This document shows, in pieces, positions 1-30,854 of a DNA stretch of 64,000 nucleotides (its first letter is position 1; every line of letters begins with the position of its first letter). Position numbers and translations under genes: made by a program. The notes under the pieces are model-generated. The model worked only from the letters and a program-made list of their open reading frames with translations, did no database searches and was not told where the DNA came from. The DNA lies in NCBI GenBank assembly GCA_964496095.1, contig CAZBWU010000001.1, positions 48,617 through 112,616 on the forward strand, written 5' to 3'. Origin of the DNA: an uncultured Gammaproteobacteria bacterium (GTDB taxonomy: Bacteria > Patescibacteriota > Patescibacteriia > Magasanikbacterales > GWA2-37-8).

Positions 1-1
1 A

Positions 2-1441
2 CTTGAATTCTTTATCTCTTCTCACGGTACGAGAAAAGGTTTGTCCGATACCGCTCTTCGTACCGCTAATGCTGGTTACCTCACCAGACGTTTGGTAGAT
101 GTGTCTCAAGATGTAATCGTCTTCCAAGATGATTGTGGTGATACTACCGGTGAAATATTCTCTATGGCTCAGTCCAAAGAAATGGGTGAAAAATTATCAG
201 AACGTATTTGGGGACGTTATGCTGTGGAAACAGTTAAGGTTGGAAATAAAATTTTAGTTAAAGAAGGCGATGCGATTGATGATCAAGTTGCTCGCGCCGT
301 AGATGAAAACAAGATTGAATCTGTCCGCGTTCGCAGTATTTTACAATGTAAAATGCAAAAAGGTATTTGTCGTAAATGTTATGGCTTCGATCTTTCCAAG
401 AACAAAGCGGTAGAGTTTGGAGTAGCGGTAGGTATTATCGCGGCTCAATCTATCGGTGAACCTGGTACTCAGCTTACTATGAGAACCTTCCATACTGGTG
501 GTGTGGCGGGTGGTGGCGATATCACTCAAGGTTTGCCTCGTGTAGATGAACTCTTTGAAGCTCGCGCTCCAAAGAAACAAGCAATGCTTGCTGAAGTGTC
601 AGGTGAAATTGAGATTGAAAAAGCTGATGGTAAGATTATTACTTCTCCAAGTGGTAAGAAAGTTTTCGAAGGTCGTCGTGGTCAAGAAATTATCCATATT
701 CATTTTTCAGGTATGGATGAGATGAAAATCAAAACCAAGGCTGAAGATGAAATCATGGTAAAAGATGGTGATTTGGTACAGCAAGATCAAACTGTCTTGG
801 TACGCGGATCATCCGGAGAAGAAATTGTCGCTAAATATCCAAGTACTGTAAAGATTGAAAAGAATACTTTGACATTATCTTATGAAGGACCTCATGTTCG
901 CGAGTATATTGTACCGCTCGGTTATAAGATTTTGGTTAAGACCGGAGATAAGGTAGAAAAAGGTGATATTTTAACAGACGGCAGTATCAATCCGCACCAA
1001 CTCTTTGAACTCAAAGGCAGAGAAGCGGTCCAGAGATATATTTTGCAAGAAGTTCAAAATATTTATTCTTCTCAAGGTCAGAAAGTTAATGACAAACACG
1101 TAGAACTTATCATCCGCCAGATGTTTAGCCGTGTCTATATTGAAGACGCCGGTGAGACAGATTTGTTGCCAGGTGAAGTGGTAGAAAAATCACAACTCGA
1201 TTTCTCTAATCGACAAGCCAAGAAAGATGGTACCAAGCTCGCAGTTGGCCGAGAATTATTCTTGGGTATTTCCAAGGTTGCTCTCTCCACTCAAAGCTTC
1301 TTGTCCGCCGCTTCCTTCCAAGAAACCGCCAAAGTTCTTATCAATACTGCTATTACCGGTAAGATTGACTACTTGGATGGTCTCAAAGAAAACGTTATTA
1401 TTGGTAGACTTATTCCAGCTGGAACTGGGTTTAAACAGTAA
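2..1441 (+). CDS. rpoC: DNA-directed RNA polymerase subunit beta' (C-terminal part; 5' end lies outside the window)
   Basis: The translation contains conserved beta' motifs (SHGTRKGLSDTALRTANAGYLTRRLVDV, GEPGTQLTMRTFHTGG). The reading frame is open from base 2, so the annotated TTG at 41 is internal and the gene is truncated at the window edge. Confidence 0.95.
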   Translation, partial: LEFFISSHGTRKGLSDTALRTANAGYLTRRLVDVSQDVIVFQDDCGDTTGEIFSMAQSKEMGEKLSERIWGRYAVETVKVGNKILVKEGDAIDDQVARAVDENKIESVRVRSILQCKMQKGICRKCYGFDLSKNKAVEFGVAVGIIAAQSIGEPGTQLTMRTFHTGGVAGGGDITQGLPRVDELFEARAPKKQAMLAEVSGEIEIEKADGKIITSPSGKKVFEGRRGQEIIHIHFSGMDEMKIKTKAEDEIMVKDGDLVQQDQTVLVRGSSGEEIVAKYPSTVKIEKNTLTLSYEGPHVREYIVPLGYKILVKTGDKVEKGDILTDGSINPHQLFELKGREAVQRYILQEVQNIYSSQGQKVNDKHVELIIRQMFSRVYIEDAGETDLLPGEVVEKSQLDFSNRQAKKDGTKLAVGRELFLGISKVALSTQSFLSAASFQETAKVLINTAITGKIDYLDGLKENVIIGRLIPAGTGFKQ

Positions 1442-1463
1442 GTTGGCAGTAGTAAATAGAAAT

Positions 1464-1497
1464 AAAAAAGACCTGTGAAATTCACAGGTCTTTTTAG
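1464..1497. terminator. Bidirectional rho-independent terminator between rpoC and the convergent ATP-grasp gene
   Basis: Hairpin GACCTGTGAA-ATTC-ACAGGTC is flanked by an A-run upstream and a T-run downstream. Confidence 0.8.
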
Positions 1498-1503
1498 TTT
1501 TTT

Positions 1504-2526
1504 TTATTTTTCCATCGCTTTCAAAACTTGCAAGTACATATCTTCCACAATCTTTTTTTGCGCCTCGCCAATTTTTAGATAATGGTCTAGGCCTGGCGCA
1601 GAATTGACTTCTAATACCCAATATTTTTTAGGTGGTTGGCTGATATCTCCGGCTATCATCAGATCAACCCCGCATAATCGCAGACCCATATATTTGGTAA
1701 TAACTACGGCCAGTTTTTTGAATTCAGGATGGATTGTATGAGTGACATCAATTCCGTCTCCGCCAGTGGAGAGATTGGCATTGTCTAATAGGTAAATTAT
1801 TTTGTTTTTTGGAGGGACAGATTTGAGGGTTAATTTTTGGTGTTTCAAATTTTGGACGATTCTAGTGTCGGTCATGGGTAAATGAGTGTCGCGTTTGTTG
1901 GTTATATATCCTTTGCCTTTGTTTTGTAGTAGCTGAAAGATAGAAGATTTGCCATCGCCGGTGACATTGAGGGGTATTCGTTGGTAGGCGGAGATAATCT
2001 TATTATCAAGCACAACAATGCGGTAATCTCTGCCTGTTAAAAGTTTTTGCACCAGGGCCACATCATCAAATTGGAAAATAAATTTCATGGCACGATAGAA
2101 TTCTGATTTGGTATAGACTTTGGCTACACCTCGGCCTTGGCTACTACTATTTGGTTTGACGATAACGGGCAGACCTAGTTGATTTGCGTATTTATACGCC
2201 ATTTTTATATTATCTTTTGAGTCTATAGCCTTGGCCCAAGAGTCTGAAAAAAAGGCCTTGCCTGGGACAGTGGGGAAGCCACCACGTGTGAGAAAAAAAT
2301 TGGCGTAGTCCTTGTCTTTGGCGATTTTGGATGCGCCCAAAGTATTAAGATCAAGACTGGTATGTCGCCAATAGCTGGTTTTGCCATTTTTAAAAATAAT
2401 TTGACCAACCTTATTCCATCTTGGCTCCATCACAATTTTTGCTCCGATTTGCGGGGCCACTTTTTGGAAAATTTGAGATAATAGAGTAGGTTTATGTTTG
2501 GGCATATTGCCAGCACACTCTATCAT
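1504..2526 (-). CDS. ATP-grasp family ligase (RimK/GshB-like)
   Basis: ATP-grasp signature segments are present (LPVIVKP...GRGV, YRIVVLDNKII, GGDGIDVT, WVLEVNSAPGLDHY). The substrate cannot be assigned from sequence. Confidence 0.7.
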   Translation of the reverse strand: MIECAGNMPKHKPTLLSQIFQKVAPQIGAKIVMEPRWNKVGQIIFKNGKTSYWRHTSLDLNTLGASKIAKDKDYANFFLTRGGFPTVPGKAFFSDSWAKAIDSKDNIKMAYKYANQLGLPVIVKPNSSSQGRGVAKVYTKSEFYRAMKFIFQFDDVALVQKLLTGRDYRIVVLDNKIISAYQRIPLNVTGDGKSSIFQLLQNKGKGYITNKRDTHLPMTDTRIVQNLKHQKLTLKSVPPKNKIIYLLDNANLSTGGDGIDVTHTIHPEFKKLAVVITKYMGLRLCGVDLMIAGDISQPPKKYWVLEVNSAPGLDHYLKIGEAQKKIVEDMYLQVLKAMEK

Positions 2527-2626
2527 AGATGGTTAAATTAGGCTAGATAGAGGGATAAATTGACTGGTTTGCTACTAGCGTAGTACAATGCCAAGTATAA
2601 ATTAAAGCTTATTTAACCTATAAAAT

Positions 2627-4417
2627 ATGGTCTTCCAAATCCCGGAAACAATAGAGAAAAAGCTATCTGTAAAGCTAAAAATAGCGATGGTAATAGGGTC
2701 GGTGGTTGTACTCGTAGGCGCGACTTTTGCCGGTTATTATTTTGGGCAAAAGAAAAATGCTGTACCGCCACAGGTAGTTCAAAATAATGATAATACTGTA
2801 CCGCCAACAGGTACGGTAGGTGAGATTGTTCCAGATCCTGTTACTGTGCCAGACACAGAAAATAGTACAGAACCTAAGAAGTACGTTTTTCCTACCACTT
2901 CTTTGCCACAGGAGATTGATAAGAAAATTGTCTGGCTTGCACAACCAAAACAGGTTGAGAATTTGAAGTGGTTTGAAGGAAGTGAATATGAGATAAATGC
3001 CTCATATTATGAGGTCGGTAATTTTGAGCACCAAGGAGAAAGCGGTAGAATCATTCTTGTGCAATGGGGTGTTGAAGGTATGGGCCCCCCGCCCTATTTT
3101 CATATATTAAACTTTAAAAAAGAAATAGTTATCTTGGTAAATTATTCTGATATATATCTCCCAAAAGACAGCTCTGATTATAGTGATCTAGGTTATATAG
3201 CACAATCTATAAGTCCAGATTTCAAACAGAAGATTAAATTAAATACGGATTTTCAGATGAGCTCATTAGATTTTCCGAAAGTGATTAAGGGTTCAAATGA
3301 TAGACAGGTTCTGCAGTCGTCAGATGTTTGGTATGGATTATCACAGGAATCTAGTAATTTTACTAGTGCTTCAGATAAAAAAATAACTATATTGTCTGAT
3401 TCAAAATTTGGACAGATTTACACTTCGGTAAATACAGGCGCATTTTATTTGTACGGGGCTCATGGAGTGGAGGTAACCTATGTTCTAGTGCCTGATTTTT
3501 TTAATAGGAGTAATCATTTGGCGCAAATTGTTTGGAATGATGGTTCTTGGAATGGGTATGAATATAGCTATACCGATCGGGGAGGATGTGGTGCAAAAAA
3601 TTATATTTCTGTAATGACTTCTTCCATAAATGTGGCTACAGATTTGGAAGCGGTGGGCAAGACAAGCAAAGGAGATAAAGTCTATGAATTAAAGGATAAA
3701 AACCATTTGTTGTTAGAGAATCTTTATACCGACGGATATTTCCCTAACCAAAATGGCAATAAAGTTTCTTACGAAGAATTTATTACTTTGCGGCCATTAA
3801 TATTTTGGGTAGATCCATTTGGCAGATTGATCAAGTTGCAGAACATGCGTTTTGTGCCACAAGCCGAATGTGGTAAGCCAGTCATTTATTTATACCCAGA
3901 AAAAACATCTATTGTAGATGTAAAAGTTGAGCCCCAAGGTGGAATGACTGTTTCTGATCCGTTTTATAATGGCGGTTGGCAGGTAAAGGCAGGGCCAAAT
4001 GGCCAATTAACAGAAACAAAATCAGGCAAGCAATACCCATATCTTTTCTGGGAAGGAAGGGGCGGATTGTACCAAACACCAGAAAAAGGTTTCTTAATTA
4101 AAAAAGAGAATATAGCCAAAGAGCTTCCAGAAAAACTGACTCAACTTGGATTAAACGCCAACGAAACCAAAGACTTTATGGAGTTTTGGTATCCACGCAT
4201 GCAGGTTAAACCGTATTATTTTGTGACTTTCCTTGGTACTCAACAGATGAACCAATTGGCGCCTCTCACTATCAATCCTCGACCAGACACAGTGGTGAGA
4301 ATCCTTATGGACTTTACTCCGCTTGATAAGCCAATTGATGTTTTGCCACTATCACTTGGTCGTACACCGGAAAGAAAAGGGTTTACAGTCATTGAGTGGG
4401 GCGGTGTGATTCGGTAA
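2627..4417 (+). CDS. Membrane-anchored exported protein, function unknown
   Basis: A long ORF with a single N-terminal TM helix (IAMVIGSVVVLVGATFAGYYF) followed by a large Pro/Thr-rich extracytoplasmic domain. No motif I recognise. The next gene starts 13 nt downstream. Confidence 0.6.
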   Translation: MVFQIPETIEKKLSVKLKIAMVIGSVVVLVGATFAGYYFGQKKNAVPPQVVQNNDNTVPPTGTVGEIVPDPVTVPDTENSTEPKKYVFPTTSLPQEIDKKIVWLAQPKQVENLKWFEGSEYEINASYYEVGNFEHQGESGRIILVQWGVEGMGPPPYFHILNFKKEIVILVNYSDIYLPKDSSDYSDLGYIAQSISPDFKQKIKLNTDFQMSSLDFPKVIKGSNDRQVLQSSDVWYGLSQESSNFTSASDKKITILSDSKFGQIYTSVNTGAFYLYGAHGVEVTYVLVPDFFNRSNHLAQIVWNDGSWNGYEYSYTDRGGCGAKNYISVMTSSINVATDLEAVGKTSKGDKVYELKDKNHLLLENLYTDGYFPNQNGNKVSYEEFITLRPLIFWVDPFGRLIKLQNMRFVPQAECGKPVIYLYPEKTSIVDVKVEPQGGMTVSDPFYNGGWQVKAGPNGQLTETKSGKQYPYLFWEGRGGLYQTPEKGFLIKKENIAKELPEKLTQLGLNANETKDFMEFWYPRMQVKPYYFVTFLGTQQMNQLAPLTINPRPDTVVRILMDFTPLDKPIDVLPLSLGRTPERKGFTVIEWGGVIR

Positions 4418-4429
4418 TAATTATAATCT

Positions 4430-6241
4430 ATGTCAGTGAAAGCAAAGATTCTCCTGTATATTTTTGGACTCGCTATTTTGGCAGGGGTGTTTGCTGTCTT
4501 TGGTTTTTGGTATCAAGCGCAAAACTCAAAGCAAAGCTTGTTTGATTTTAGTAGAGAAGTAAAAGAACAAAAATTTCATCGCGCCTATTCTATGGACGTT
4601 GGTTTTTATGATTCTTTTTTTACCAATAATAATCCAAAAGAAAAAATTGAGGATAGAGTTTTTTCAGCGGTTGTGCCACACCATTTGGTCGCAGGTAGGT
4701 ATCTGGGGTCTTTTTTTAGAAGGTTAGATTATCAATCTCCGCAGACAGTTGTGATTATAGGTCCAAATCATAAACAGATTGGTAATGACTCTATTATTTC
4801 TAGCCCACTCGCTTGGCAGACTCCATATGGAGTATTGGCGACGGATAAAAAATTGGTGGCCAGTATCACAGAGAAAAAGTTAGCAACCAACAATGAAGGA
4901 GTAATGGGTGATGAACACAGTATTTCGACCCTTGTACCATTTGTAAAAAAGACTTGGCCAAATGCAAAAATAGTACCAATAGTTCTCAAAAATAATACAA
5001 CCGAAAATCGCATAGATGAGTTGGTAAAATTACTGGCTGATTCTAAAGAAAAAATATTGGTGTTAGTAAGTGTAGATTTTTCTCATTATTTACCAAAATT
5101 AGTGGCGGATTTTCACGATGAATTATCTCTTAATGTTTTGGAAAGCGGTAGTCAAACAAATTTACAAGAATTAGAAGTAGATAGTAAACCTAGTTTGTCT
5201 GCTTTATTAAAATACAATAAATTGAAAGAAGCAGAAAACTTTACAGTTTTTTCTAATACTAACAGCGGGGAGATTATTTATAAAGATTTAGCAGAAACAA
5301 CCAGTCATATTATTGGCGCCTATACGAGTGGATTACCTAGTAAAAAACCGGTCGCATCTTTGCAATTCTTTGGAGATATTATGCTTGATAGAAGTGTGGC
5401 TAAAGTTATGAGTAGTGATGGCCTAGATTATTTGTTTGCCAATTTACACGGTCAGGAGAATAGGTTTTTTGAAGGTCAGCATATTTTGATGGCCAACTTA
5501 GAAGGGCCGTTCGCGCCAACACGTGTACCGACGACCAAGTCAATTGCTTTTCGTTTTGATCCAAAACTGGCCAAAGATTTAAAGTCCTATGGATTTGATG
5601 GATTTACTTTGGCCAATAATCACATAGTAGATATGGGATGGAAGAATGTTGATTTTACTAAGCAGGTTTTAAAAGATTCTGGTTTGGGTAGTTTTGGTAA
5701 CCAGTATGATGAAGGTGTGGATGATATCTATATAGCGGGAGAGGAACAGAATTTGCCATTTAAAATTGCTTTTATTGGTCTCAATACCGTTGGTCACGAA
5801 TTGGATATGTCAGTAGTAAAGCAGATGATAATTAAGGCCAAACAGCAAGCCAAATTTTTGATTATAAATATTCATTGGGGGCAGGAATACAGTCTAAAAT
5901 CAAATAAATTTCAGCAAGACCTTGGGCATCAGCTGATTGATATGGGGACTGACGCCATTATTGGTCACCATCCGCATGTGGTAGAGGAGATGGAAGTCTA
6001 TAATGGTCATCCAATTTTTTATTCTTTAGGTAATTTTATTTTTGATCAGTATTTTTCCAAAGAAACACAGGAAGGTATAAGCGTTGGATTAATTATAAAT
6101 GATGATGGTAGAATAAATTGGCATGTGTTTCCTTTTTTTTCCAAAAAATCTCAGGTGCAGTTGATGCTGGGCAAGCAACGAGAAGAGTTTATGGAGTGGT
6201 TTGAGAAGGATAGTCGGATAACTCATAATTTTTTACATTAA
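4430..6241 (+). CDS. Fusion protein: MEMO1-like (AmmeMemoRadiSam B-like) N-terminal domain plus CapA-like metallophosphoesterase C-terminal domain, with an N-terminal TM segment
   Basis: N-terminal half: VVPHHLVAGRYLG...VIIGPNHKQ...HSISTLVPFV, as in MEMO1/UPF0103. C-terminal half: FFGDIMLDR...MANLEGPF...TLANNHIVDMG...INIHWGQEY...IIGHHPHVV...YSLGNFIFDQ, as in CapA/PgsA-like metallophosphatases. Confidence 0.65.
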   Translation: MSVKAKILLYIFGLAILAGVFAVFGFWYQAQNSKQSLFDFSREVKEQKFHRAYSMDVGFYDSFFTNNNPKEKIEDRVFSAVVPHHLVAGRYLGSFFRRLDYQSPQTVVIIGPNHKQIGNDSIISSPLAWQTPYGVLATDKKLVASITEKKLATNNEGVMGDEHSISTLVPFVKKTWPNAKIVPIVLKNNTTENRIDELVKLLADSKEKILVLVSVDFSHYLPKLVADFHDELSLNVLESGSQTNLQELEVDSKPSLSALLKYNKLKEAENFTVFSNTNSGEIIYKDLAETTSHIIGAYTSGLPSKKPVASLQFFGDIMLDRSVAKVMSSDGLDYLFANLHGQENRFFEGQHILMANLEGPFAPTRVPTTKSIAFRFDPKLAKDLKSYGFDGFTLANNHIVDMGWKNVDFTKQVLKDSGLGSFGNQYDEGVDDIYIAGEEQNLPFKIAFIGLNTVGHELDMSVVKQMIIKAKQQAKFLIINIHWGQEYSLKSNKFQQDLGHQLIDMGTDAIIGHHPHVVEEMEVYNGHPIFYSLGNFIFDQYFSKETQEGISVGLIINDDGRINWHVFPFFSKKSQVQLMLGKQREEFMEWFEKDSRITHNFLH

Positions 6242-6247
6242 TTTTTT

Positions 6248-6970
6248 ATGTCAGGTCATAGTAAATGGCACAACATACAAGGTAGAAAGGGGAAGCAGGA
6301 TGCTTTGCGTAGTGGGCAATTTACCAAAGTTTCCAAACTTATTACTATCGCTGCCAAAAGCGGAGGTGATCCGTCGTCTAATTTTTCTTTGCGTATTGCG
6401 GTAGATAAGGCTAGGGCGGTTGGCATGCCAAAAGACAATATTGAGCGCGCTATTAAGCGTGGCACAGGCGAGCTAGAAGGCGCGCAGATCGAAGAAGTGC
6501 TCTATGAGTGTTATGGTCCGGGTGGAGTAGCGGTACTGGTCAAATGTTTGACTGATAATAAGAATAGAGCGGTATCTGATATAAAACATATTTTTTCAGA
6601 TCATGGTGGCTCTATGGCTGGCGCTGGGAGCGTGCTGTGGATGTTTGCACAGATGGGAGTAGTGACAGTCCTCGGTTCACAGTTTTCAGTTCATAGAGAA
6701 GAAAATGAGTTGGCTTTGATTGAGGCTGGAGCTGAAGAGATAAAAGATAGCGAAGAAAATGAATTAGAGATATATACAAAAATGGAAAATTTTCAAAAAG
6801 TTTTGGGAGTTCTAAAAGAAATAGGAGTAGAAACAAAAGAATCAGGATTACAGTGGATAGCAAAGGATAAAGTTGAAGTAAATGAAGAAACCACAGAAAA
6901 ATTAGGGGCCTTGTTTTCTGAGTTAGAGGAGAATGATGATGTGGACGATTATTTTACCAACGCCGAATAA
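6248..6970 (+). CDS. yebC: YebC/PmpR family DNA-binding transcriptional regulator
   Basis: The N-terminus (MSGHSKWHNIQGRKGKQDALR...IAVDKARAVGMPKDNIERAIKRG) is the diagnostic YebC/TACO1 start. Its position immediately upstream of ruvC is the conserved arrangement. Confidence 0.9.
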   Translation: MSGHSKWHNIQGRKGKQDALRSGQFTKVSKLITIAAKSGGDPSSNFSLRIAVDKARAVGMPKDNIERAIKRGTGELEGAQIEEVLYECYGPGGVAVLVKCLTDNKNRAVSDIKHIFSDHGGSMAGAGSVLWMFAQMGVVTVLGSQFSVHREENELALIEAGAEEIKDSEENELEIYTKMENFQKVLGVLKEIGVETKESGLQWIAKDKVEVNEETTEKLGALFSELEENDDVDDYFTNAE

Positions 6971-7085
6971 TACATCTATACTTTTTGTCACCAAAAAGTA
7001 TCAAAAAGTGTTGGGGTGGCAGAACTTTCGCCCAAGCGGACAGGTGCTTTTTTCCTAAAACCCTTTGTGCAAGTAGCAAATATTT

Positions 7086-7592
7086 ATGAAAAATATACAC
7101 AGTGAAACTATTTTGGGAATCGATCCTGGTTTTGGCAGAGTCGGTTATGGAATAGTAAAAAAAGATGCCAAAGGCGAATGGAGAATGGTTGTTTTTGGTT
7201 GTATAGAAACTTCAGCCAAGAAAAGTTTTGTGGAGCGAATTGCCGAAATCCATGAAGAACTTGAGAAAATTATAAAAGAATATAAACCAACACGCATGGC
7301 TGTGGAGGAATTATTCTTCTTCAAGAATGTCAAAACCGCCATTGAGGTGGGGCAGGCGAGAGGGGTCATACTTCTCACCGGCGTAGAGAATCATTTGCCA
7401 ATAGACGAGTTTACACCTTTGCAGGTCAAGCAAGCGATTACCGGTTATGGACGAGCCGAAAAAGTCCAGATGCAAAAGGTAGTGAAGATGATTCTTGGAA
7501 TGAAAGAAGATATAAAATCAGATGATGCGGCTGATGCCTTGGCTGTGGCGCTCTGCGCTGGGCAGAGTTTGTGGATGAAAAATATTAAGTAG
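7086..7592 (+). CDS. ruvC: Crossover junction endodeoxyribonuclease RuvC
   Basis: ILGIDPGFGRVGYGIV is the RNase H-fold catalytic start. The 168-aa length is right and it follows yebC. Confidence 0.9.
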   Translation: MKNIHSETILGIDPGFGRVGYGIVKKDAKGEWRMVVFGCIETSAKKSFVERIAEIHEELEKIIKEYKPTRMAVEELFFFKNVKTAIEVGQARGVILLTGVENHLPIDEFTPLQVKQAITGYGRAEKVQMQKVVKMILGMKEDIKSDDAADALAVALCAGQSLWMKNIK

Positions 7593-7684
7593 GCTTATTA
7601 ATTATTTTAAATTTCTTAACTCCAAAAATTTGGGGTTAATTTTTATATTTTGTTTAAGATTAGCCAAAATAATTCAACTAACTA

Positions 7685-7713
7685 TTGACAAAACAGGTAA
7701 ATTGTGATATATT
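7685..7713 (+). promoter_or_regulatory. Near-consensus sigma70 promoter (TTGACA-N17-TATATT)
   Basis: TTGACA at 7685-7690, a 17-nt spacer and TATATT at 7708-7713. It sits directly upstream of the GC-rich island and its ORF. Confidence 0.55.
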
Positions 7714-7796
7714 TATCGGTCGTGCGAAGTGCAAAAGCGTACCCGAATGGGTTGCTAGCCTATCGTATTACACAACCTTTGTCGTAGGAGTTTCCA

Positions 7797-8111
7797 GTGA
7801 ACATTCGTCAGATTCTCGTTACGGTCGGGATGTTCTTTATTCTCGCTCTCGGCCTGGCCAGTCGCGTGGTGCTGGTCATCATCGTCGAAGGAAAACCGAT
7901 GATGACCAATCTGCAACAATCCCCGAGGGTCATCGAGCTGAGTTGGCCGTACCGCGTGGCGGTGACGTCCGTGGTGAACGCCAGTATCAGGTGCTGGGAT
8001 GTGGACGGTCATGTTGATTTGTTCCCCCCAGATGACTCGCTATGGGTAGTGCAGTGTTATTACTCATATGGGACGTCACGTTGTTGCCAGCGACGGAGAG
8101 ATGGGTTGTAG
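7797..8111 (+). CDS. Small Cys-rich protein with an N-terminal membrane/signal segment, encoded in a GC-rich island (putative horizontally acquired gene)
   Basis: GTG start is preceded by AGGAG at -12 to -8. A 104-codon ORF has strongly GC-biased third positions (ctg, gtg, atc, ccg, gcc) unlike the rest of the window. The N-terminus is hydrophobic (ILVTVGMFFILALGLASRVVLVIIV) and the C-terminal part carries 5 Cys. The same DNA could alternatively be a structured RNA. Confidence 0.4.
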   Translation: MNIRQILVTVGMFFILALGLASRVVLVIIVEGKPMMTNLQQSPRVIELSWPYRVAVTSVVNASIRCWDVDGHVDLFPPDDSLWVVQCYYSYGTSRCCQRRRDGL

Positions 8112-8195
8112 TTGTGCGGGGCTTTCGCGTCCCGCCCCCGTTCTATATACGTCATGAATTGGTGTTTAGAGAACGGGTTTTTAGTTTATATTTTT

Positions 8196-8795
8196 TTAAT
8201 TTTGAGGGCTCCCTTCAGTAGTTTGTTTCAATTTTTTAAACGGAATTTTCATAGCGCTCTTAAGTTGGAAATAAAACATTAATGCAAAAAACTTTTTGAT
8301 GAGTAGGTATGATATATATGCGCTTCTGGTAATAATAAATTGTAATAATCGTAGTACAATATTAGCCGCATATTCTACATTTTCATGTTTCAAACATACT
8401 TTGGAATCAAGACGTAGTCTTGTCCCTCCCTCAATAGGTGAAAGTGTATAAAGATCATAAGTAATAGTTTGAAACCAGGTATTTTTGCCAGCACCTGATT
8501 CAAGTTCTAATAAAAAGGGTGGATTATATTGGGTGATAATCCCGTTTATTATAACGGTTATTGACTCTGTGTTTGTGTCTTGAGTCGGACCAATTTTTGT
8601 ATACTTAGTAAACTCGGCGCCAACCCCCGGTTTTCCCTTGTATTCTATTGTAGCTTTAGAGGAGGTCTGTCCCAAGTATTCAAAACTACCCCAAATTGTA
8701 ATCTTGTCTGGATCAACAAGATAAGGAAAAATTACTTCTGGTGAAGCGTGTATATCAATTTCAAAAGAGAGTTTTATAAATGGTTTTGATTCCAT
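8196..8795 (-). CDS. SRPBCC-fold (AHSA1/polyketide cyclase-like) domain protein with a C-terminal hydrophobic tail
   Basis: The ORF shows weak resemblance to the SRPBCC ligand-binding fold and no catalytic motifs. Confidence 0.35.
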   Translation of the reverse strand: MESKPFIKLSFEIDIHASPEVIFPYLVDPDKITIWGSFEYLGQTSSKATIEYKGKPGVGAEFTKYTKIGPTQDTNTESITVIINGIITQYNPPFLLELESGAGKNTWFQTITYDLYTLSPIEGGTRLRLDSKVCLKHENVEYAANIVLRLLQFIITRSAYISYLLIKKFFALMFYFQLKSAMKIPFKKLKQTTEGSPQN

Positions 8796-8801
8796 GCTGT
8801 T

Positions 8802-9233
8802 TTATTTAGAAATTTGTAATTTTCTAAAATCTTTTCTTCCGAGAATAAGTAAAAGCAAAATTGCTATTGGTAAAACTTCTTTATTCAGAGATATTTCTGC
8901 GCCCGGAGTTAGATTAAAGGCGATTTCTTTTAAATCGCTAAAGGCCAATACTGGCAAAATTAGTAAAATTAAAATAAAGCTTAAAAAATAAGCCCATCGT
9001 TTTTGCTTCCATAAGAAAAATGAGCTGATAAATAATATGAGACTTCCTCCGCCAATAAATACGGCATATATCAGCATAGCAAAATTATGTAGGGCTGCAA
9101 ATTCTCCGCCTTCTGACGGTTCGCCCAGAGAAAATGAGACGAGTATGATGTTTATGACTATGAAAACGTATAATAGGCCGACGGCGATTTTGGTTGGCAA
9201 GGAAATGTTTTGCATATTAATAATAATGATCAA
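8802..9233 (-). CDS. Small integral membrane protein, hypothetical
   Basis: About 4 predicted TM helices. It overlaps its neighbours by a few nt, which suggests an operon. Confidence 0.45.
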   Translation of the reverse strand: MIIIINMQNISLPTKIAVGLLYVFIVINIILVSFSLGEPSEGGEFAALHNFAMLIYAVFIGGGSLILFISSFFLWKQKRWAYFLSFILILLILPVLAFSDLKEIAFNLTPGAEISLNKEVLPIAILLLLILGRKDFRKLQISK

Positions 9234-9546
9234 TTAGTGGAAATGTTAGAATGATTGTTATTAAGCTTAGAATGTAGATAAGCAACCATATTGGCCAGCG
9301 TTGCGTGTATCGGACGCAGATTTTTAGAAGAATAGTTGAATTGATACTTAGGATAATAAAACAGATCCACAAAATTCGAATCATATCCAAACGAAGATCC
9401 CCATATCCGTAACCCAAGGTCGGATGAAACCAAATTAGTAAACTTAGTGAGATGAGAATTGCTACTAAAGTTAAAAGAATGTATTTTTGTATTTTCCAGA
9501 TTGATCTCATAATTTTTTTAATTTTTTCAAATTTATCTTCCGCCAA
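9217..9546 (-). CDS. Small integral membrane protein, hypothetical
   Basis: About 3 TM helices. It overlaps the flanking ORFs. Confidence 0.4.
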   Translation of the reverse strand: MAEDKFEKIKKIMRSIWKIQKYILLTLVAILISLSLLIWFHPTLGYGYGDLRLDMIRILWICFIILSINSTILLKICVRYTQRWPIWLLIYILSLITIILTFPLIDHYY

Positions 9547-9919
9547 TAAAGTTTTTCTTGGGAATAAAAATTTTTGTATTTAAGTAAGCCTCTATCTCAA
9601 TACCTTCATTTGTCCAATTAGTTTTTGTATCAAGCAGATCTTGTTCGCTCGTAATAGAAGCAAAGGGGTAATTAAGAGCAAAGCCATAAGTCGGTTCGAC
9701 TTGTTTTGATATCCAGATAAAATATTTTGTATCAAGCGTTTGTTGTTGTTTAATTATGGAGATGCAATATTGGTTAGATGATCCGTAGTTTATTTCTTGT
9801 GGCTGGCAAGATAATGCAAACTTTTGTTCACTCCAAGATACGCCAAATAATTGGCAAATAATTACAATTCCGAATAAAAATAAAAGTAGGGTTTCTATTA
9901 AAAAAATAATTTTTTTCAT
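9533..9919 (-). CDS. Secreted/membrane-anchored hypothetical protein
   Basis: The N-terminal signal/TM segment is MKKIIFLIETLLLFLFGIVIICQLFG. Confidence 0.45.
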   Translation of the reverse strand: MKKIIFLIETLLLFLFGIVIICQLFGVSWSEQKFALSCQPQEINYGSSNQYCISIIKQQQTLDTKYFIWISKQVEPTYGFALNYPFASITSEQDLLDTKTNWTNEGIEIEAYLNTKIFIPKKNFIGGR

Positions 9920-10010
9920 ATTATTGTACTCTCAATTTACTTGTGTTAGTATTGTAAGACTAATAAAATTATACCGTTTTACTTTATATAACGCAATGTT
10001 TTAGCCGAGT

Positions 10011-10484
10011 ATGACAACTAGTAATATGCTTCCAAAATTTATTCTCATCCTCCCTAATATCCGTAGTGGTCACAATGTGGGGGCTATTTTTCGGACTGCT
10101 GATGGTGCGGGTGTAGACAAGTTATACCTCACCGGCTATACGCCTTGCCCGCCACATGTGCAGATTGACAAGGTGTCGCTGGGCGCGGAAAAGTGGATGC
10201 CTTGGGAGTATCGCAAACAAACTGGCAGACTGCTTAAAGAATTAAAACAAATAGGGTATAATATAGTGGCTCTAGAACAAACCAAAACGAGCCAAGACAT
10301 ATTTGGTTTTCAGCCGCAATTTCCGCTAGCCTTGGTTTTGGGAAATGAAAAAACCGGTGTTTCCAAAGCCTTGCTCAAGTATTGCGACCAGGCGATTGAG
10401 ATTCCAATGCACGGCAAGAAAAACAGTCTCAATGTCAGTGTGGCGGCGGGTGTGGCGATGTACGTTATAAAAAATAAAATTTAA
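10011..10484 (+). CDS. SpoU/TrmH family RNA 2'-O-methyltransferase
   Basis: SPOUT motifs are present (GHNVGAIFRTADGAGVD, LVLGNEKTGVS, EIPMHGKKNSLNVSVAAGV). Confidence 0.8.
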   Translation: MTTSNMLPKFILILPNIRSGHNVGAIFRTADGAGVDKLYLTGYTPCPPHVQIDKVSLGAEKWMPWEYRKQTGRLLKELKQIGYNIVALEQTKTSQDIFGFQPQFPLALVLGNEKTGVSKALLKYCDQAIEIPMHGKKNSLNVSVAAGVAMYVIKNKI

Positions 10485-10486
10485 AA

Positions 10487-10648
10487 CTGTCATCCCGAGG
10501 GTTACGCCCGAGGGATCTCTGTCCCAACTGTCATTCCCGCCACAGCGGGAATCCAGACAATTTAATTGGACGCTGGATACCCGATCAGGTCGGGGATTAC
10601 AACGACGAACGAACTGGACAGAGATTCCTCCTTTGTCGTCGGAATGAC
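10487..10648. repeat. Cluster of short palindromic interspersed repeats (GTCATyC...GAATGAC family), at least 3 units in both orientations
   Basis: Units ctgtcatcccgagggttacgcccgagggatctctgtcc, ctgtcattcccgccacagcgggaatccagaca and an inverted unit ending ggaatgacaa. Related units recur at 33832, 37916, 59113 and 63484. Confidence 0.75.
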
Positions 10649-10659
10649 AATAAAAAATT

Positions 10660-11382
10660 ATGCAATCAACCATTCAATTATTTCATTACTTCTACAACAA
10701 TCTACCGCCACTTGTGCCGGAAGATGTGGTTTTGTCTATGAAAAAAGAATTGGATGATTTGGAAAAAGACCCAAATGTCACTTTGGCCGAAGTCGAAGAC
10801 AGGATGGTCAGATTTGGCTATGAAGTTTGGCCTTGGAATCAAGCCTTCAAATATTTTTTAAATAATGTTGAAGAAAAAATGGGTGACCATTTTTTGTTGC
10901 CTAGAATGAGTGAAGGATTGCGCGAAAAATACCTTAATTTCCAAGCATTAAATGGCACGCTCAAAGATCTGCAAACCGGCCGACCCGCTTCGTTTTTTAC
11001 TTCAGAAGAAAGGGCTGAATTGTGCGAAAAATTAGTAGATATGCGTTTGCACTTGAAAGAATATGTAAAGAGAGATCTGCTCGGAGTAAACCGAGAGGCC
11101 TATTTAGAAAAAGTAGATGAGTATAAAAACTTAGTAGAAAAAATAAAGTTTAATTTGGAATCTTTGCGTAATTTTGTAGAAAAGGAAGAAGACGGATCCG
11201 TTTTGATTGCGGAAATAAATACAAAGATTCGAGATTTTGAACATGGCCTGTGTCTACTTGGTACGGAGTTGGATTTTGAAGCAGTTTGCCAAGTGCATGA
11301 TTTTTTTGTAGGACGCAAAAAAGATTTGAATAGAATGAGAGGAATCAATACGCCAATAGAGGTTAATTTTTATAATGATTAA
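10660..11382 (+). CDS. Hypothetical protein
   Basis: A 240-aa ORF with a charged, helical composition. No recognisable motif. Confidence 0.45.
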   Translation: MQSTIQLFHYFYNNLPPLVPEDVVLSMKKELDDLEKDPNVTLAEVEDRMVRFGYEVWPWNQAFKYFLNNVEEKMGDHFLLPRMSEGLREKYLNFQALNGTLKDLQTGRPASFFTSEERAELCEKLVDMRLHLKEYVKRDLLGVNREAYLEKVDEYKNLVEKIKFNLESLRNFVEKEEDGSVLIAEINTKIRDFEHGLCLLGTELDFEAVCQVHDFFVGRKKDLNRMRGINTPIEVNFYND

Positions 11383-12362
11383 CCAATCAGAACTGGTTTG
11401 ATAGAAGAGAATTTAGAAATGGCTTTGGCCATTTCTTTTTGTGTAAGGAGGTTTTTTTCTGGTCCATGAGTTGATATAACGCTGCTACTATTGGCAATAC
11501 CCCAACTTAAAGCAATATCAAGAGGTTTTTTATAAAATTTGGCAGCTAGATATCCTGCTGAAAAAGCATCACCCGCGCCATTTTTGGCTACCACCTCTAC
11601 CGGAAAGCTTTCAGAGTGCCAAATCTGGGTGGCGTTTCCAGTCCAAGCGCCACGTTCACCGTCGGTAATAACTACTTCTTTGGCGCCCAGATTTTGTAAA
11701 TTCTTAATAAGAAGTGAAGTGTCAGTTGGTTGGTCTGCGGGAGTACCAAGGACCATTCTTGCTTCTTCTAGATTTAAGATTAAAAGATCGGTGCGAGGAA
11801 GAATGTCTTTAACCAGTTCTAAATTTTGTAATTGGAGGGAACCGGGATTGTAAGCCAATAAAATATCTCGGTGTTTATTTAAAAATTGTAATAACTTTTT
11901 TTGTAGAGGCTCATAACCTTCACTGAGACTAGTGTAGTAAACCCAATCTGTTTCTGGAAGGTTAGTTGGGAATTTATAGTTTCTTTTTTGATGAGCGGAC
12001 AGGATTGTTCTTTCTTTTTTGAAGTTTAAAACAACCGAATATCTAGTTTTGGCATTTTTATCAATAACCAAAAACTTAGTATTTATTTTATATTTTTTTA
12101 ATAATTTTTGGATTATTTCACCATTGGCATCCTTGCCTAGTGAGGTGAGAACGGAAGTTTTTAAGCCAAGTTTAACAGCTGCTAGGACCATGTTGGCAGC
12201 ATTACCGCCCAAAGCCTGGAAACTGTCGGTAATAGGGATCTTGGCGGCGTAGTTGAGACATAATTGGCAGTTCTGTTTATTGATATCACATTCCAAAGTC
12301 GCATTATCAATCATGATATGCGTATCAATGAGCATGTCGCCGATGGTGAGAAGATTGAACAT
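11379..12362 (-). CDS. PfkB family carbohydrate/nucleoside kinase (ribokinase-like)
   Basis: GGNAANMVLAAVKLGL near the N-terminus and the NGAGDAF anion-hole/catalytic motif near the C-terminus. Confidence 0.8.
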   Translation of the reverse strand: MFNLLTIGDMLIDTHIMIDNATLECDINKQNCQLCLNYAAKIPITDSFQALGGNAANMVLAAVKLGLKTSVLTSLGKDANGEIIQKLLKKYKINTKFLVIDKNAKTRYSVVLNFKKERTILSAHQKRNYKFPTNLPETDWVYYTSLSEGYEPLQKKLLQFLNKHRDILLAYNPGSLQLQNLELVKDILPRTDLLILNLEEARMVLGTPADQPTDTSLLIKNLQNLGAKEVVITDGERGAWTGNATQIWHSESFPVEVVAKNGAGDAFSAGYLAAKFYKKPLDIALSWGIANSSSVISTHGPEKNLLTQKEMAKAISKFSSIKPVLIG

Positions 12363-22846: not shown

Positions 22847-22851
22847 TAAGT

Positions 22852-22962
22852 ATGGCTGAAATTAGTGTGGAGAAAAACTCAACCATCATTTTCCCAGCTC
22901 AGTTTATGAGTACAATCGGTGAGATTAGGAAATTCATGAGTCAAGAAACGGTAAATAATTAG
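22852..22962 (+). pseudogene. Orphan duplicate of the SPFH gene 3' end (gene remnant)
   Basis: About 110 nt that are roughly 85% identical to 21031-21137. It would encode MAEISVEKNSTIIFPAQFMSTIGEIRKFMSQETVNN against the SPFH C-terminus MAEISVEKNSTIIFPAQFMSTIGEIKKFMSQETAK. The differences are almost all synonymous. Confidence 0.75.
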
Positions 22963-22967
22963 CTTCT

Positions 22968-23888: not shown

Positions 23889-24063
23889 ATAGAAAAAGTT
23901 AAAAATTAACTAGCTAAATTTAATCAAGAAAATAGATGTCTGTCAAATGGGTAAATACTGTTGATGGTTGACAATGGGGCTTAAGAGTTATATTATTTAT
24001 CCAAATCTCTATGATAGAGATTTGGATAATATATGTATTTAACTTGTTTATTTTGATTATTTT

Positions 24064-28801: not shown

Positions 28802-28810
28802 AACGAGAAG

Positions 28811-30439: not shown

Positions 30440-30502
30440 AGTTTATATTATTTATGTCCAAGTATGCACGCGAAAATTAATGATCCTATTTAAACTCGCG
30501 CT

Positions 30503-30841: not shown

Positions 30842-30854
30842 ACTAAAAAATAGC

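What the first reader, a model, noticed from the sequence alone, without database searches (positions are those of the whole stretch)
1504..6241. Divergent pair: a RimK-like ATP-grasp ligase facing a membrane-anchored exported protein and a MEMO-like/CapA-like fusion
CapA/PgsA-type metallophosphoesterases are known from poly-gamma-glutamate capsule synthesis. MEMO1-like domains are known from the AmmeMemoRadiSam systems. Their fusion in one membrane-tethered protein (4430-6241) is unusual. It sits next to a large extracytoplasmic protein and opposite an ATP-grasp (RimK/GshB-like) amino-acid ligase. Together these could form an uncharacterised system for building or modifying an amino-acid polymer or cell-surface component. 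The three downstream genes (yebC, ruvC) are tightly spaced with the fusion gene, which suggests co-transcription.
Basis: partly seen in the sequence, partly recalled or inferred. Interest (0 to 1): 0.55.

Follow-up and report, generated by a model that had tools for sequence, protein, structure and literature searches.

The report
Memo–CapA enzyme with unknown surface partner
Across the tiny-celled Patescibacteria, a conserved two-gene unit encodes a membrane-anchored double enzyme (Memo + CapA domains) and a partner protein of unknown fold that probably work on the cell surface, while the ATP-grasp ligase next door is an unrelated, folate-linked gene that sits there only in this genus.

Summary
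ORFs 1504-2526(-), 2627-4417(+) and 4430-6241(+) encode an ATP-grasp ligase, a 596-aa protein with one N-terminal membrane helix and no known domain, and a 603-aa Memo + PGA_cap (CapA) fusion.

The proposed three-part system does not hold. The ATP-grasp gene is absent from all 80 species-level loci that carry the fusion. In other Patescibacteria it sits beside a CofE/FolC2-like ligase, DHFR and ThyA, which is a folate/thymidylate context. No AMMECR1, radical SAM, PgsB or PgsC gene was found near the fusion or in the 64-kb window. The yebC/ruvC adjacency is lineage-specific synteny.

What is conserved is a two-gene operon of the fusion plus the 596-aa protein:
- 50 of 65 informative loci have both on the same strand, in either order.
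- 4 of 4 reciprocal look-ups found the pair, from a 4-bp overlap to a 46-bp gap.
- None of 8 CapA-only loci has the partner.

Both halves of the fusion keep their metal and catalytic residues. The partner has a hypervariable ectodomain and a highly conserved C-terminal domain. That domain is confidently modelled, matches nothing in the PDB, and belongs to a family of about 6,500 clusters.

Most likely this is an extracytoplasmic envelope-modifying module with MslH/PgsA-type chemistry. The substrate is unknown.

The parts
1465..1495 (.). Bidirectional terminator-like hairpin (14-bp stem) between the convergent rpoC and ATP-grasp genes
1504..2526 (-). ATP-grasp ligase, 340 aa. It is NOT part of the conserved module. 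It belongs to a very conserved Patescibacteria family whose usual neighbours are a CofE/FolC2-like ligase, DHFR and ThyA.
2560..2589 (+). Promoter-like site (TTGACT-18-TACAAT) 37 bp upstream of the 596-aa gene. Consensus match only.
2627..4417 (+). Partner protein, 596 aa, with no known domain. It is the conserved neighbour of the fusion.
2675..2743 (+). Single N-terminal transmembrane helix of the partner (about residues 17-39), preceded by four Lys residues
2762..3796 (+). Pro/Thr-rich linker (residues 46-95, low pLDDT) and beta-rich ectodomain (residues 96-390). This stretch is hypervariable: 39-56% amino-acid identity to a congener whose RpoC is 98.9% identical, with dS saturated.
3797..4414 (+). 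Conserved C-terminal domain of the partner (residues 391-596), with motifs ECGKPVIYLYPEK, YPYLFWEG and FTVIEWGG. It is 91.7% identical to the congener. The AF2 model has pLDDT 90.7 and matches no PDB fold. The domain family has about 6,500 clusters.
4430..6241 (+). Memo-CapA fusion protein, 603 aa
4448..4510 (+). Single N-terminal transmembrane helix of the fusion (about residues 7-27)
4619..5248 (+). Memo domain (residues 64-273). Invariant H84, H114, D216 and H219 align with MEMO1 H49, H81, D189 and H192.
5360..6049 (+). PGA_cap/CapA domain (residues 311-540). Invariant D316, E358, N397, H398, D401, H482 and H516 align with MslH D11, E44, N87, H88, D91, H259 and H295.
6248..6970 (+). yebC (TACO1/YebC family). 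A syntenic housekeeping gene, probably co-transcribed here but not functionally linked.
7086..7592 (+). ruvC. A syntenic housekeeping gene.
7616..7639 (+). Terminator-like hairpin (10-bp stem plus T-run) after ruvC. It is the first such site downstream of the 596-aa gene start.

Best explanation
The functional unit is a two-gene operon conserved in Patescibacteria.

Gene 1 (4430-6241) encodes a protein with one N-terminal membrane helix followed by two intact metalloenzyme domains. The first is a Memo (LigB-superfamily) domain. The second is a CapA/PGA_cap (calcineurin-fold) domain. Gene 2 (2627-4417) encodes a second single-pass protein. It has a fast-evolving ectodomain and a highly conserved C-terminal domain whose fold has not been described.

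Inferred: both proteins face the outside of the cytoplasmic membrane and act together on a component of the cell envelope, without ATP. The CapA domain most likely performs the chemistry shown for its only structurally characterised relative, MslH, and proposed for PgsA/CapA. In that chemistry a bound metal holds a free alpha-carboxylate, and two His/Asp pairs remove and return the C-alpha proton, converting an L-residue to a D-residue. Candidate targets are a C-terminal residue or a gamma-linked glutamate. The Memo domain supplies a second metal site that binds or modifies the same peptide. The partner presents or recognises the substrate.

The ATP-grasp ligase, yebC and ruvC are bystanders.

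Sub-confidences:
- The two-gene module is real and independent of the ATP-grasp gene: about 0.9.
- It is extracytoplasmic and acts on the envelope: about 0.6.
- The CapA domain acts by epimerisation: about 0.3.
For: SHOWN

The fusion family:
- It is large. 118 of the best 120 homologs have both domains. 520 genome loci were confirmed.
- The MslH metal and catalytic residues D11, E44, N87, H88, D91, H259 and H295 (PMC10406935) correspond to D316, E358, N397, H398, D401, H482 and H516. All are invariant in 20 sequences that are only 38-63% identical to the window protein.
- The MEMO1 site residues H49, H81, D189 and H192 correspond to invariant H84, H114, D216 and H219.

Partner linkage:
- The partner lies on the same strand and adjacent in 50 of 65 informative full-length loci: 29 upstream and 21 downstream.
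- It is absent from all 8 CapA-only loci. Fisher p = 3.6e-5, not corrected for phylogeny.
- It is the only non-housekeeping neighbour family.
- In 4 of 4 reciprocal look-ups from partner homologs in different lineages, the fusion lies immediately upstream, from a 4-bp overlap to a 46-bp gap, in otherwise unrelated surroundings.

ATP-grasp gene:
- It is present in 0 of 80 fusion loci.
- It has folate/thymidylate neighbours in 11 of 16 of its own loci.

Export signals:
- Each of the two proteins has a single N-terminal hydrophobic helix.
- Other carriers of the partner's C-terminal domain also start with signal-peptide-like sequences (P0361; the 472-aa ORF in L107).

FROM THE LITERATURE
- MslH is a Ca(II)-dependent peptide epimerase.
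- Its discoverers proposed that CapA epimerises L-Glu in poly-gamma-glutamate (PMC8179263).
- Deleting pgsA in B. subtilis shifts the D/L ratio of the polymer from 75/25 to 5/95 (PMC6029982).
Against: - No substrate is identified.
- Topology rests only on hydropathy and analogy.
- The calcineurin fold is primarily a phosphoesterase fold, so hydrolysis cannot be excluded.
- MslH ligand H261 is Gly484 here (motif HWGxEY, with E486 invariant), and an extra invariant His514 is present. The metal site therefore differs from that of MslH.
- The MEMO1 ligand C244 could not be aligned. By motif it may be Ser279.
- 15 of 65 informative loci lack an adjacent partner.
- One locus (L070) has only the 207-aa C-terminal domain, with no export signal.
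- The partner's domain also occurs outside Patescibacteria without a Memo-CapA neighbour (L107), so the two are not obligately tied.
- Loci are phylogenetically non-independent, so the Fisher p-value is optimistic.
Confidence: 0.4

Rival explanations
1. The CapA half is a hydrolase (phosphoesterase or amidase) rather than an epimerase. On this reading the module trims or scavenges an envelope or host-derived polymer outside the cell, such as phosphodiester-linked wall polymers, nucleotides or gamma-glutamyl peptides. The partner would act as a binding subunit.
For: - PGA_cap belongs to the calcineurin-like metallophosphoesterase fold (PMC10406935).
- The protein keeps GDxxDR-like, NNH and GHxPH motifs.
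- MslH ligand H261 is not conserved and an extra invariant His514 is present. This is compatible with a different, possibly two-metal, site.
- Established knowledge, not tested here: Patescibacteria depend on scavenging.
Against: - No canonical DxH motif I lies upstream of the GD motif (read from the sequence).
- The only biochemically and structurally characterised family member is an epimerase.
- The genetic evidence for PgsA points to stereochemistry rather than hydrolysis.
Confidence: 0.2
2. Surface recognition module. The partner's hypervariable ectodomain is a host- or prey-recognition adhesin of an episymbiotic cell. The Memo-CapA enzyme edits the host's wall peptides at the contact site.
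For: - The ectodomain (residues 96-390) is 39-56% identical between congeners whose flanking genes are 96-99% identical, with saturated dS. This suggests allele replacement or diversifying selection.
- A Pro/Thr-rich stalk follows the membrane anchor.
- The module is restricted to Patescibacteria.
Against: - There is no evidence of the lifestyle of this lineage and no adhesin-like domain hits.
- Hypervariability is equally expected for any phage-exposed surface protein.
- The enzyme itself is conserved like a housekeeping gene (omega 0.08).
Confidence: 0.1
3. Classical poly-gamma-glutamate (capsule) synthesis. The CapA half plays the PgsA role in a PgsBCA-type synthetase whose PgsB and PgsC genes lie elsewhere in the genome.
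For: - The PGA_cap match is strong and full-length, and the protein has a PgsA-like N-terminal membrane anchor.
- JGI names some members 'poly-gamma-glutamate synthesis protein'.
Against: - No Mur-ligase-like (PgsB) or CapC-like gene appears among the neighbour families recurring in at least 9 of the 80 loci, and none is in the 64-kb window.
- In known producers pgsB, pgsC and pgsA form one operon (PMC6029982).
- Here the conserved partner is a different protein, and a Memo domain is fused on.
Confidence: 0.07
4. The ATP-grasp ligase builds an amino-acid polymer that the exported protein and the Memo-CapA fusion export or modify.
For: - The genes are divergently arranged with a 100-bp spacer in this genome and in a congener.
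- The ATP-grasp domain is closest to peptide-extending ligases, namely the CphA G domain and GshAB.
Against: - The ATP-grasp gene is absent within 10 kb of the fusion in 80 of 80 other species.
- Relatives with 90% identical RpoC have rpoC followed by the partner gene with no ATP-grasp match between them, about 190 bp apart in L001 and about 1 kb apart in L039.
- The ATP-grasp family has its own conserved context of CofE-like ligase, DHFR and ThyA.
- A bidirectional terminator and the opposite strand separate it from the neighbouring transcription units.
Confidence: 0.03
5. Member of an AmmeMemoRadiSam system, as NCBI's automatic name for these proteins implies.
For: TIGR04336 (AmmeMemoSam_B) scores 107.6 bits against a cut-off of 26 on residues 66-283.
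Against: - No AMMECR1 or radical SAM family appears among the neighbour families recurring in at least 9 of the 80 loci.
- Neither is in the 64-kb window.
- The domain is probably extracytoplasmic, where a radical SAM partner could not act.
- The name covers only the N-terminal third of a 600-aa protein.
Confidence: 0.03

Closest known systems
PgsA/CapA of the PgsBCA(E) poly-gamma-glutamate synthetase (Bacillus)
   Same: - Same Pfam family (PF09587), matched over the full length.
- Same N-terminal membrane anchor with the catalytic domain predicted outside.
- The His/Asp/Asn/Glu site is conserved.
   Different: - No PgsB or PgsC partner genes are nearby.
- A Memo domain is fused in front of the CapA domain.
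- The conserved operon partner is an unrelated 596-aa protein.
- The module is found in Patescibacteria, where no poly-gamma-glutamate is known.
MslH, lasso-peptide C-terminal Trp epimerase (PDB 8gq9)
   Same: - It is the only solved structure of the family (profile E = 1.7e-23).
- 7 of its 8 metal or catalytic residues are invariant in the window's family.
   Different: - MslH is soluble, cytoplasmic and part of a lasso-peptide (RiPP) cluster.
- Its ligand H261 is replaced here by Gly484, and an extra His514 is present.
- The NCBIfam MslH model scores 56.7 bits against a cut-off of 700.
- No lasso-peptide genes were seen nearby.
MEMO1 / AmmeMemoRadiSam system protein B (PF01875, TIGR04336)
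   Same: The domain fold family is the same, and the His/His/Asp/His site residues are conserved.
   Different: - The domain is membrane-tethered and fused to CapA.
- There are no AMMECR1 or radical SAM partners.
- The equivalent of the MEMO1 Cys244 ligand could not be aligned and may be Ser.
Cyanophycin synthetase G domain and the GshAB ATP-grasp module (for the ATP-grasp gene)
   Same: These are the best sequence matches: PDB 3ln7 at 5.7e-31 and 7lg5 at 2.1e-27. They are ligases that extend a peptide carboxylate.
   Different: The window protein is only the 340-aa ATP-grasp module. It has no CphA N or M domains and no GshA domain. It scores 175 bits against the CphA cut-off of 877.
CofE/FolC2 with CofF/MptN-type glutamate ligases (for the usual context of the ATP-grasp gene)
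   Same: - In other Patescibacteria the ATP-grasp gene is adjacent to a PF01996 (CofE/FolC2) gene and DHFR.
- A CofE homolog replaces FolC in Chlamydia (PMC1971073).
- CofF and MptN are ATP-grasp alpha-glutamate ligases acting on cofactor tails.
   Different: - No biochemical data exist for the Patescibacteria pair.
- In this window the CofE-like, DHFR and ThyA genes are absent, and ThyX is present instead.

Membership tests
PGA_cap / CapA family (PF09587) | Profile match above the curated cut-off over the whole domain | tested here: met
   183.4 bits against a cut-off of 27, covering profile positions 2-255 of 255 at residues 311-540
PGA_cap / CapA family (PF09587) | Metal-binding and acid/base residues as defined in MslH (D11, E44, N87, H88, D91, H259, H261, H295) | tested here: met
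   7 of 8 are invariant in alignment A1 (D316, E358, N397, H398, D401, H482, H516). H261 is replaced by G484, with E486 and H514 invariant nearby.
PgsBCA(E) poly-gamma-glutamate synthetase system | Operon or association with the PgsB (Mur-ligase-like amide ligase) and PgsC membrane subunits | tested here: not met
   No such family appears among the neighbour families recurring in at least 9 of the 80 loci. None is in the 64-kb window. Genome-wide absence could not be tested.
MslH-type lasso-peptide epimerase (NF038314) | Equivalog-level score and a lasso-peptide gene cluster context | tested here: not met
   56.7 bits against a cut-off of 700, and only residues 450-537 match. The neighbours are housekeeping genes.
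MslH-type epimerase activity | C-alpha proton exchange or L-to-D conversion of a residue with a free alpha-carboxylate | not testable with these tools
   This requires enzyme assays.
Memo family (PF01875) | Profile match above the cut-off and a conserved His-rich metal site | tested here: met
   101.7 bits against a cut-off of 27. H84, H114, D216 and H219 align to MEMO1 H49, H81, D189 and H192 and are invariant. The C244 equivalent is inconclusive.
AmmeMemoRadiSam system | Co-occurrence or adjacency of Memo (B) with AMMECR1 (A) and a radical SAM activase | tested here: not met
   Neither partner appears among the neighbour families recurring in at least 9 of the 80 loci, and neither is in the window.
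Cyanophycin synthetase (NCBI's name for the ATP-grasp homologs) | Full CphA architecture of about 870 aa (N domain, ATP-grasp G domain, Mur-ligase M domain), scoring above the model cut-off | tested here: not met
   The protein is 340 aa. It scores 175.3 bits against a cut-off of 877 and matches only profile positions 208-454 of 871.
ATP-grasp superfamily (RimK / D-Ala-D-Ala-ligase-like) | ATP-grasp domain match above the cut-off | tested here: met
   RimK 52.4 bits (cut-off 21) and Dala_Dala_lig_C 46.3 bits (cut-off 24). PDB relatives are GshAB and CphA.
Proposed three-gene system (ATP-grasp + exported protein + fusion) | The ATP-grasp gene is conserved next to the fusion across genomes | tested here: not met
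   0 of 80 loci within 10 kb. It is present only in this genus.
Two-gene module (fusion + 596-aa partner) | Conserved adjacency on the same strand, independent of the surrounding genes | tested here: met
   50 of 65 informative loci, with both gene orders seen. 4 of 4 reciprocal look-ups found the pair, from a 4-bp overlap to a 46-bp gap.

The most novel reading that the evidence does not exclude
The pair would be a Patescibacteria-specific machine that edits peptides outside the cell. The partner's hypervariable ectodomain selects a target on the cell's own envelope or on a host cell. Its conserved C-terminal domain would be an undescribed fold with about 6,500 family clusters and no known function. 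That domain would dock onto the Memo-CapA enzyme, which then converts L-residues to D-residues, or otherwise edits residues with a free alpha-carboxylate, without ATP. This would be the first function for the bacterial Memo domain. It would also be the first function for the new domain family, and a new route to D-amino acids in cell envelopes.
Probability: 0.12. Interest if true: 0.8.

Novelty: new variant of a known kind. Interest (0 to 1): 0.45.

Why it matters
Memo is a universally distributed domain with no established biochemical function in bacteria. CapA/PgsA has only recently been linked to peptide epimerisation. Here the two are fused and membrane-tethered, they occur in hundreds of Patescibacteria species, and they are always separated from their textbook partners (PgsBC, AMMECR1/radical SAM). 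That makes the fusion a clean handle for studying what each domain does on its own.

The analysis also gives a first functional association, an operon partnership, to a large and confidently folding domain family that no library describes. It corrects two misleading automatic names: 'AmmeMemoRadiSam system protein B' and 'cyanophycin synthetase'. As a by-product, it flags a candidate alternative route for adding glutamate to folate in Patescibacteria, formed by the ATP-grasp ligase and a CofE-like ligase next to DHFR and ThyA.

Tried and rejected
1. **Naming the 596-aa partner.** None of these gave a usable hit:
   - Pfam and NCBIfam
   - PHROGs and PADLOC
   - a profile of 41 homologs against PDB sequences, best E = 0.19
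   - Foldseek against the PDB with the full-length model and with the C-terminal domain model, no hit with E <= 0.001 and TM below 0.2

   The only structural match is an uncharacterised giant-virus MAG protein.
2. **Cys415 as a catalytic nucleophile.** Rejected. The Cys is replaced by Lys in non-Patescibacteria members of the domain family (P0361, L107), and the domain has no invariant His.
3. **A third component.** The unannotated 330-363-aa ORFs flanking the pair in L085, L104 and L106 are unrelated to each other and absent from the window.
4. **An RNA element in the region.** No Rfam or tRNA hits were found in 1-12000.
5. **Literature.** No paper in the held library describes the fusion, or CapA in Patescibacteria.
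6. **Remote relatives of the partner's domain.** The exhaustive search returned only the top 150 hits, nearly all of them Patescibacteria-type proteins of 550-620 aa. The distant tail of the family remained invisible.
7. **The 'phage' hit for the domain (MT835506).** This is an unverified contig carrying bacterial carboxylase genes, so it gives no evidence of a phage role.


Full report
**1. Observation**

- 1504-2526(-) encodes a 340-aa ATP-grasp protein: Pfam RimK 52.4 bits and Dala_Dala_lig_C 46.3 bits.
- Its best NCBIfam and PDB matches are partial ones, to the ATP-grasp modules of cyanophycin synthetase and GshAB.
- 4430-6241(+) encodes a 603-aa protein. Residues 64-273 are a Memo domain (101.7 bits). 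Residues 311-540 are a full-length PGA_cap domain (183.4 bits).
- 2627-4417(+) encodes a 596-aa protein with no hit in Pfam, NCBIfam, PHROGs or PADLOC.
- Each + strand protein has exactly one hydrophobic segment, at the N-terminus.
- Spacers are 100 bp (divergent), 12 bp, 6 bp and 115 bp.

**2. The fusion is a conserved family and not an oddity of this genome**

A protein search returned 874 homologs. Of the best 120, 118 carry both Pfam domains and nearly all are about 600 aa. Where they are named, they come from Magasanik-, Kaiser-, Komeili-, Falkow-, Buchanan- and other Patescibacteria.

In an alignment of 20 members that are 38-63% identical to the window protein, the residues that matter are invariant.
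- For the CapA half these are D316, E358, N397, H398, D401, H482 and H516.
- The only solved relative is the lasso-peptide epimerase MslH (8gq9, profile E = 1.7e-23).
- These seven residues align to MslH D11, E44, N87, H88, D91, H259 and H295. Crystallography and mutagenesis show these to be the Ca(II) ligands and the two His/Asp acid-base pairs (PMC10406935).
- MslH H261 is Gly484 here (motif IHWGQEY, with E486 invariant). An additional invariant His514 sits where MslH has Gly293. The metal site is therefore related but not identical.
- For the Memo half, H84, H114, D216 and H219 align with MEMO1 H49, H81, D189 and H192. The third MEMO1 ligand, C244, lies beyond the alignable region.

**3. 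Which neighbours are real partners?**

I mapped the window's six proteins onto 80 loci, each with 10 kb of flank.

The ATP-grasp protein was found in none of them. Its family is 50-67% identical across the phylum, so it would have been detected. In L001 and L039, whose RpoC is 90% identical to the window's, rpoC is followed by the 596-aa gene with no ATP-grasp match between them. The gap is about 190 bp in L001 and about 1 kb in L039. Only a congener (L085/L086) and a second assembly of this organism (L087) share the window's layout. The congener's RpoC C-terminal region is 98.9% identical and its ATP-grasp protein 97.6%.

An all-against-all clustering of 1,662 neighbouring ORFs gave one non-housekeeping family that recurs with the fusion: the 596-aa protein, in 50 of 80 loci. 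Every other recurrent family is housekeeping:
- TatD
- MetRS
- RuvC
- YebC
- RpoC
- ATP synthase subunits
- SpoU and RsmI methylases
- NifS/NifU

No AMMECR1, radical SAM, PgsB-like or PgsC-like family appears.

Quantitatively:
- 50 of 65 full-length fusion loci with enough flank carry the partner on the same strand, 29 upstream and 21 downstream.
- None of 8 informative CapA-only loci does.
- Fisher p = 3.6e-5, which is optimistic because the loci are related.

The CapA-only proteins are 345-403 aa and consist of a membrane helix, a short linker and the PGA_cap domain. They occupy the same rpoC...yebC-ruvC slot in relatives such as L052 and L057. Memo and the partner therefore come and go together.

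The reciprocal test was clean. Four partner homologs were chosen only for contig length and lineage diversity. All four have a Memo + PGA_cap gene immediately upstream, from a 4-bp overlap to a 46-bp gap, amid otherwise unrelated genes. The conserved unit is therefore a two-gene operon.

**4. The partner protein**

It has 1,366 detected homologs, all named 'hypothetical' and none with a Pfam domain.

AlphaFold2 with 41 sequences gives a good model, with mean pLDDT 82.7 and pTM 0.74:
- membrane helix at residues 15-43
- disordered Pro/Thr-rich stalk at 47-81
- beta-rich region at about 96-390
- alpha/beta C-terminal domain at 391-596

Modelled alone, the C-terminal domain reaches pLDDT 90.7. 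Neither model has a Foldseek match in the PDB with E <= 0.001, and TM-scores are below 0.2. A sequence profile finds nothing in the PDB either. The single structural match is an uncharacterised 406-aa protein from a Terrestrivirus MAG (E = 4.5e-12, TM 0.67).

An exhaustive phmmer search with the C-terminal domain finds 6,523 clusters at 50% identity with E <= 1e-3, and 2,615 with E <= 1e-30. Most are proteins of 550-620 aa with the domain at the C-terminus.

The domain also occurs outside this architecture:
- three times in a 1,120-aa ankyrin-repeat protein with a signal-peptide-like start (P0361)
- at the C-terminus of a 472-aa protein with a signal-peptide-like start, on a gut bacterial contig mislabelled as phage

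In those proteins the Patescibacteria-invariant Cys415 is Lys, and the domain has no invariant His. A Cys-protease-type mechanism is therefore unlikely.

Between the window and its congener the partner is strikingly mosaic:
- residues 1-45: 95.6% identical
- residues 96-250: 39% identical, dN 0.59, dS 1.45
- residues 251-390: 56% identical, dS saturated
- residues 391-596: 91.7% identical, dN 0.044

The flanking genes have dS of 0.3-0.6 and omega of 0.02-0.08. The ectodomain has therefore been replaced or is evolving extremely fast, as is common for exposed surface proteins. The C-terminal domain is as constrained as the enzyme.

**5. The ATP-grasp gene**

Its family is large (3,140 homologs) and unusually conserved, at 60-67% identity across lineages. 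Omega against the congener is 0.04.

In other Patescibacteria it lies directly beside a PF01996 (CofE/FolC2-type) gene and DHFR, often with ThyA, dCTP deaminase, FolB and SHMT. Of 16 distinct loci, 11 show at least one of these within 3 kb, and four of the five negatives are short contigs. A CofE homolog is known to replace FolC in Chlamydia (PMC1971073). CofF and MptN are ATP-grasp glutamate ligases acting on cofactor tails; both appear as weaker NCBIfam matches. The family's likely role is therefore in folate-type cofactor glutamylation, which is an inference.

The window has no CofE-like, DHFR, ThyA, FolB or SHMT gene anywhere in its 64 kb. It has ThyX with Tmk, dUTPase and dCMP deaminase at 28.1-32.6 kb. 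This may explain why the usual cluster is dissolved here.

Either way, the ATP-grasp gene is a bystander to the fusion. A 14-bp-stem bidirectional terminator (1465-1495) closes both it and rpoC.

**6. Transcription**

A promoter-like site (2560-2589) precedes the partner gene. The scan lists weak hairpins inside the partner gene (2999-3015) and inside yebC (6360-6374), but none at a gene boundary before 7616-7639, after ruvC. Co-transcription of partner, fusion, yebC and ruvC is plausible in this genome.

It is not a conserved feature. yebC or ruvC accompany the fusion only in the Magasanikbacteria-like subset (21-23 of 80 loci). The congener has an unrelated 330-aa ORF between the fusion and yebC.

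**7. Mechanism**

Shown:
- a membrane-anchored protein with two intact metalloenzyme sites
- an operon partner with its own anchor
- no ATP-using or radical partner

Inferred:
- Both proteins face outward. Each has a single N-terminal helix with Lys-rich N-termini. PgsA has the same design. Other carriers of the partner's domain have export signals.
- For chemistry, the best guide is MslH together with the genetics of PgsA. MslH's discoverers proposed that CapA epimerises L-Glu within poly-gamma-glutamate (PMC8179263). A pgsA deletion changes the polymer's D/L ratio from 75/25 to 5/95 (PMC6029982).
- I therefore favour metal-assisted epimerisation of a residue with a free alpha-carboxylate in an envelope peptide or polymer. 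Memo would provide a second binding or modifying site. The partner would provide substrate recognition.
- Hydrolysis by the calcineurin-fold domain is the main rival.

My confidence is high for the module definition (about 0.9), moderate for an envelope role (about 0.6) and low for the specific chemistry (about 0.3).

**8. Comparison with known systems, novelty and verdict**

The fusion is a true member of the PGA_cap and Memo families. It fails the system-level tests for PgsBCA, AmmeMemoRadiSam and MslH lasso-peptide clusters. The sequences are already in public databases under automatic names, and I found no paper describing the fusion or its partner.

I class it as a new variant of known kinds with an uncharacterised partner family. 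The proposed ATP-grasp partnership does not.

Noticed in passing
window 1504-2526 (-); L081 4703-7011; L083 6001-8302; L088-L101: The ATP-grasp family (about 335 aa, 60-67% identical across Patescibacteria) is usually adjacent to a CofE/FolC2-like PF01996 gene and DHFR, often with ThyA, FolB and SHMT. This was seen in 11 of 16 distinct loci. It suggests an uncharacterised pair of ligases that add glutamate to folate-type cofactors. NCBI names these proteins 'cyanophycin synthetase', which the 175-bit partial match (cut-off 877) does not justify.
   Followed up: partly
window 28136-32621: The window contains a thymidylate cluster built on ThyX (28811-30439, 542 aa with two Thy1 stretches), together with Tmk, dUTPase and dCMP deaminase. 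No ThyA, DHFR or CofE-like gene occurs anywhere in the 64 kb. The switch to ThyX may explain why the ATP-grasp gene has left its usual folate cluster in this genus.
   Followed up: partly
window 2762-3796 vs L085 (ENA ERZ27249659 k119_94036): The ectodomain of the 596-aa protein is 39-56% identical to that of a congener whose flanking genes are 96-99% identical. dS is saturated, and blastn finds no alignment for 2973-3491. This looks like allele replacement or very rapid diversification of a surface-exposed region.
   Followed up: partly
L052 9842-10879, L057 9860-10900, L068, L071-L073, L078-L080: In nine related genomes the same rpoC...yebC-ruvC slot holds a 345-403-aa protein with a membrane anchor and a CapA domain but no Memo domain. 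None of these loci has the 596-aa partner. Memo and the partner appear to be gained or lost together.
   Followed up: partly
window 7600-8190: This segment of about 600 bp is richer in G+C and is absent from the congener, which has a HAD hydrolase gene there. It has the best promoter-like site of the region (7685-7713, 11 of 12 matches plus TG). It carries a 104-aa ORF (7797-8111) with an N-terminal hydrophobic helix and a Cys-rich tail. There are no Rfam, tRNA, Pfam-like, PHROGs or PADLOC hits.
   Followed up: partly
P0361 (1120 aa); BFVD A0A3G4ZNZ8; L107 5122-6540 (MT835506.1): The partner's C-terminal domain (motifs KPxIYLYPE ... FTVVEWGG) also occurs outside Patescibacteria. It appears three times in an ankyrin-repeat protein with a signal-peptide-like start, once in a Terrestrivirus MAG protein, and once in a 472-aa protein with a signal-peptide-like start from a gut contig. 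That contig is deposited as 'Bacteriophage sp.' but carries bacterial carboxylase genes. The domain is absent from the Pfam copy used.
   Followed up: partly
L070 11873-12496: In one genome, labelled Saccharibacteria, only the 207-aa C-terminal domain follows the fusion gene, with no membrane anchor or signal peptide. It could be a truncated gene, an assembly problem or a genuinely cytoplasmic variant.
   Followed up: no
L001-L004, L006, L008-L010 and others (accessions CAZ..., CAY...): Many species-representative MAG records titled 'uncultured Gammaproteobacteria bacterium' carry RpoC 72-92% identical to this window's and the same Patescibacteria synteny. Their organism labels look wrong. L046, labelled 'Planctomycetota', is also suspect.
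   Followed up: no
window 21605-25062 and 58043-62506: The window encodes an Orn/DAP/Arg decarboxylase, an ornithine/aspartate carbamoyltransferase and an arginase-family enzyme close together, plus carbamoyl-phosphate synthase small and large subunits. This is a notable set of arginine, polyamine and pyrimidine genes for a reduced genome.
   Followed up: no
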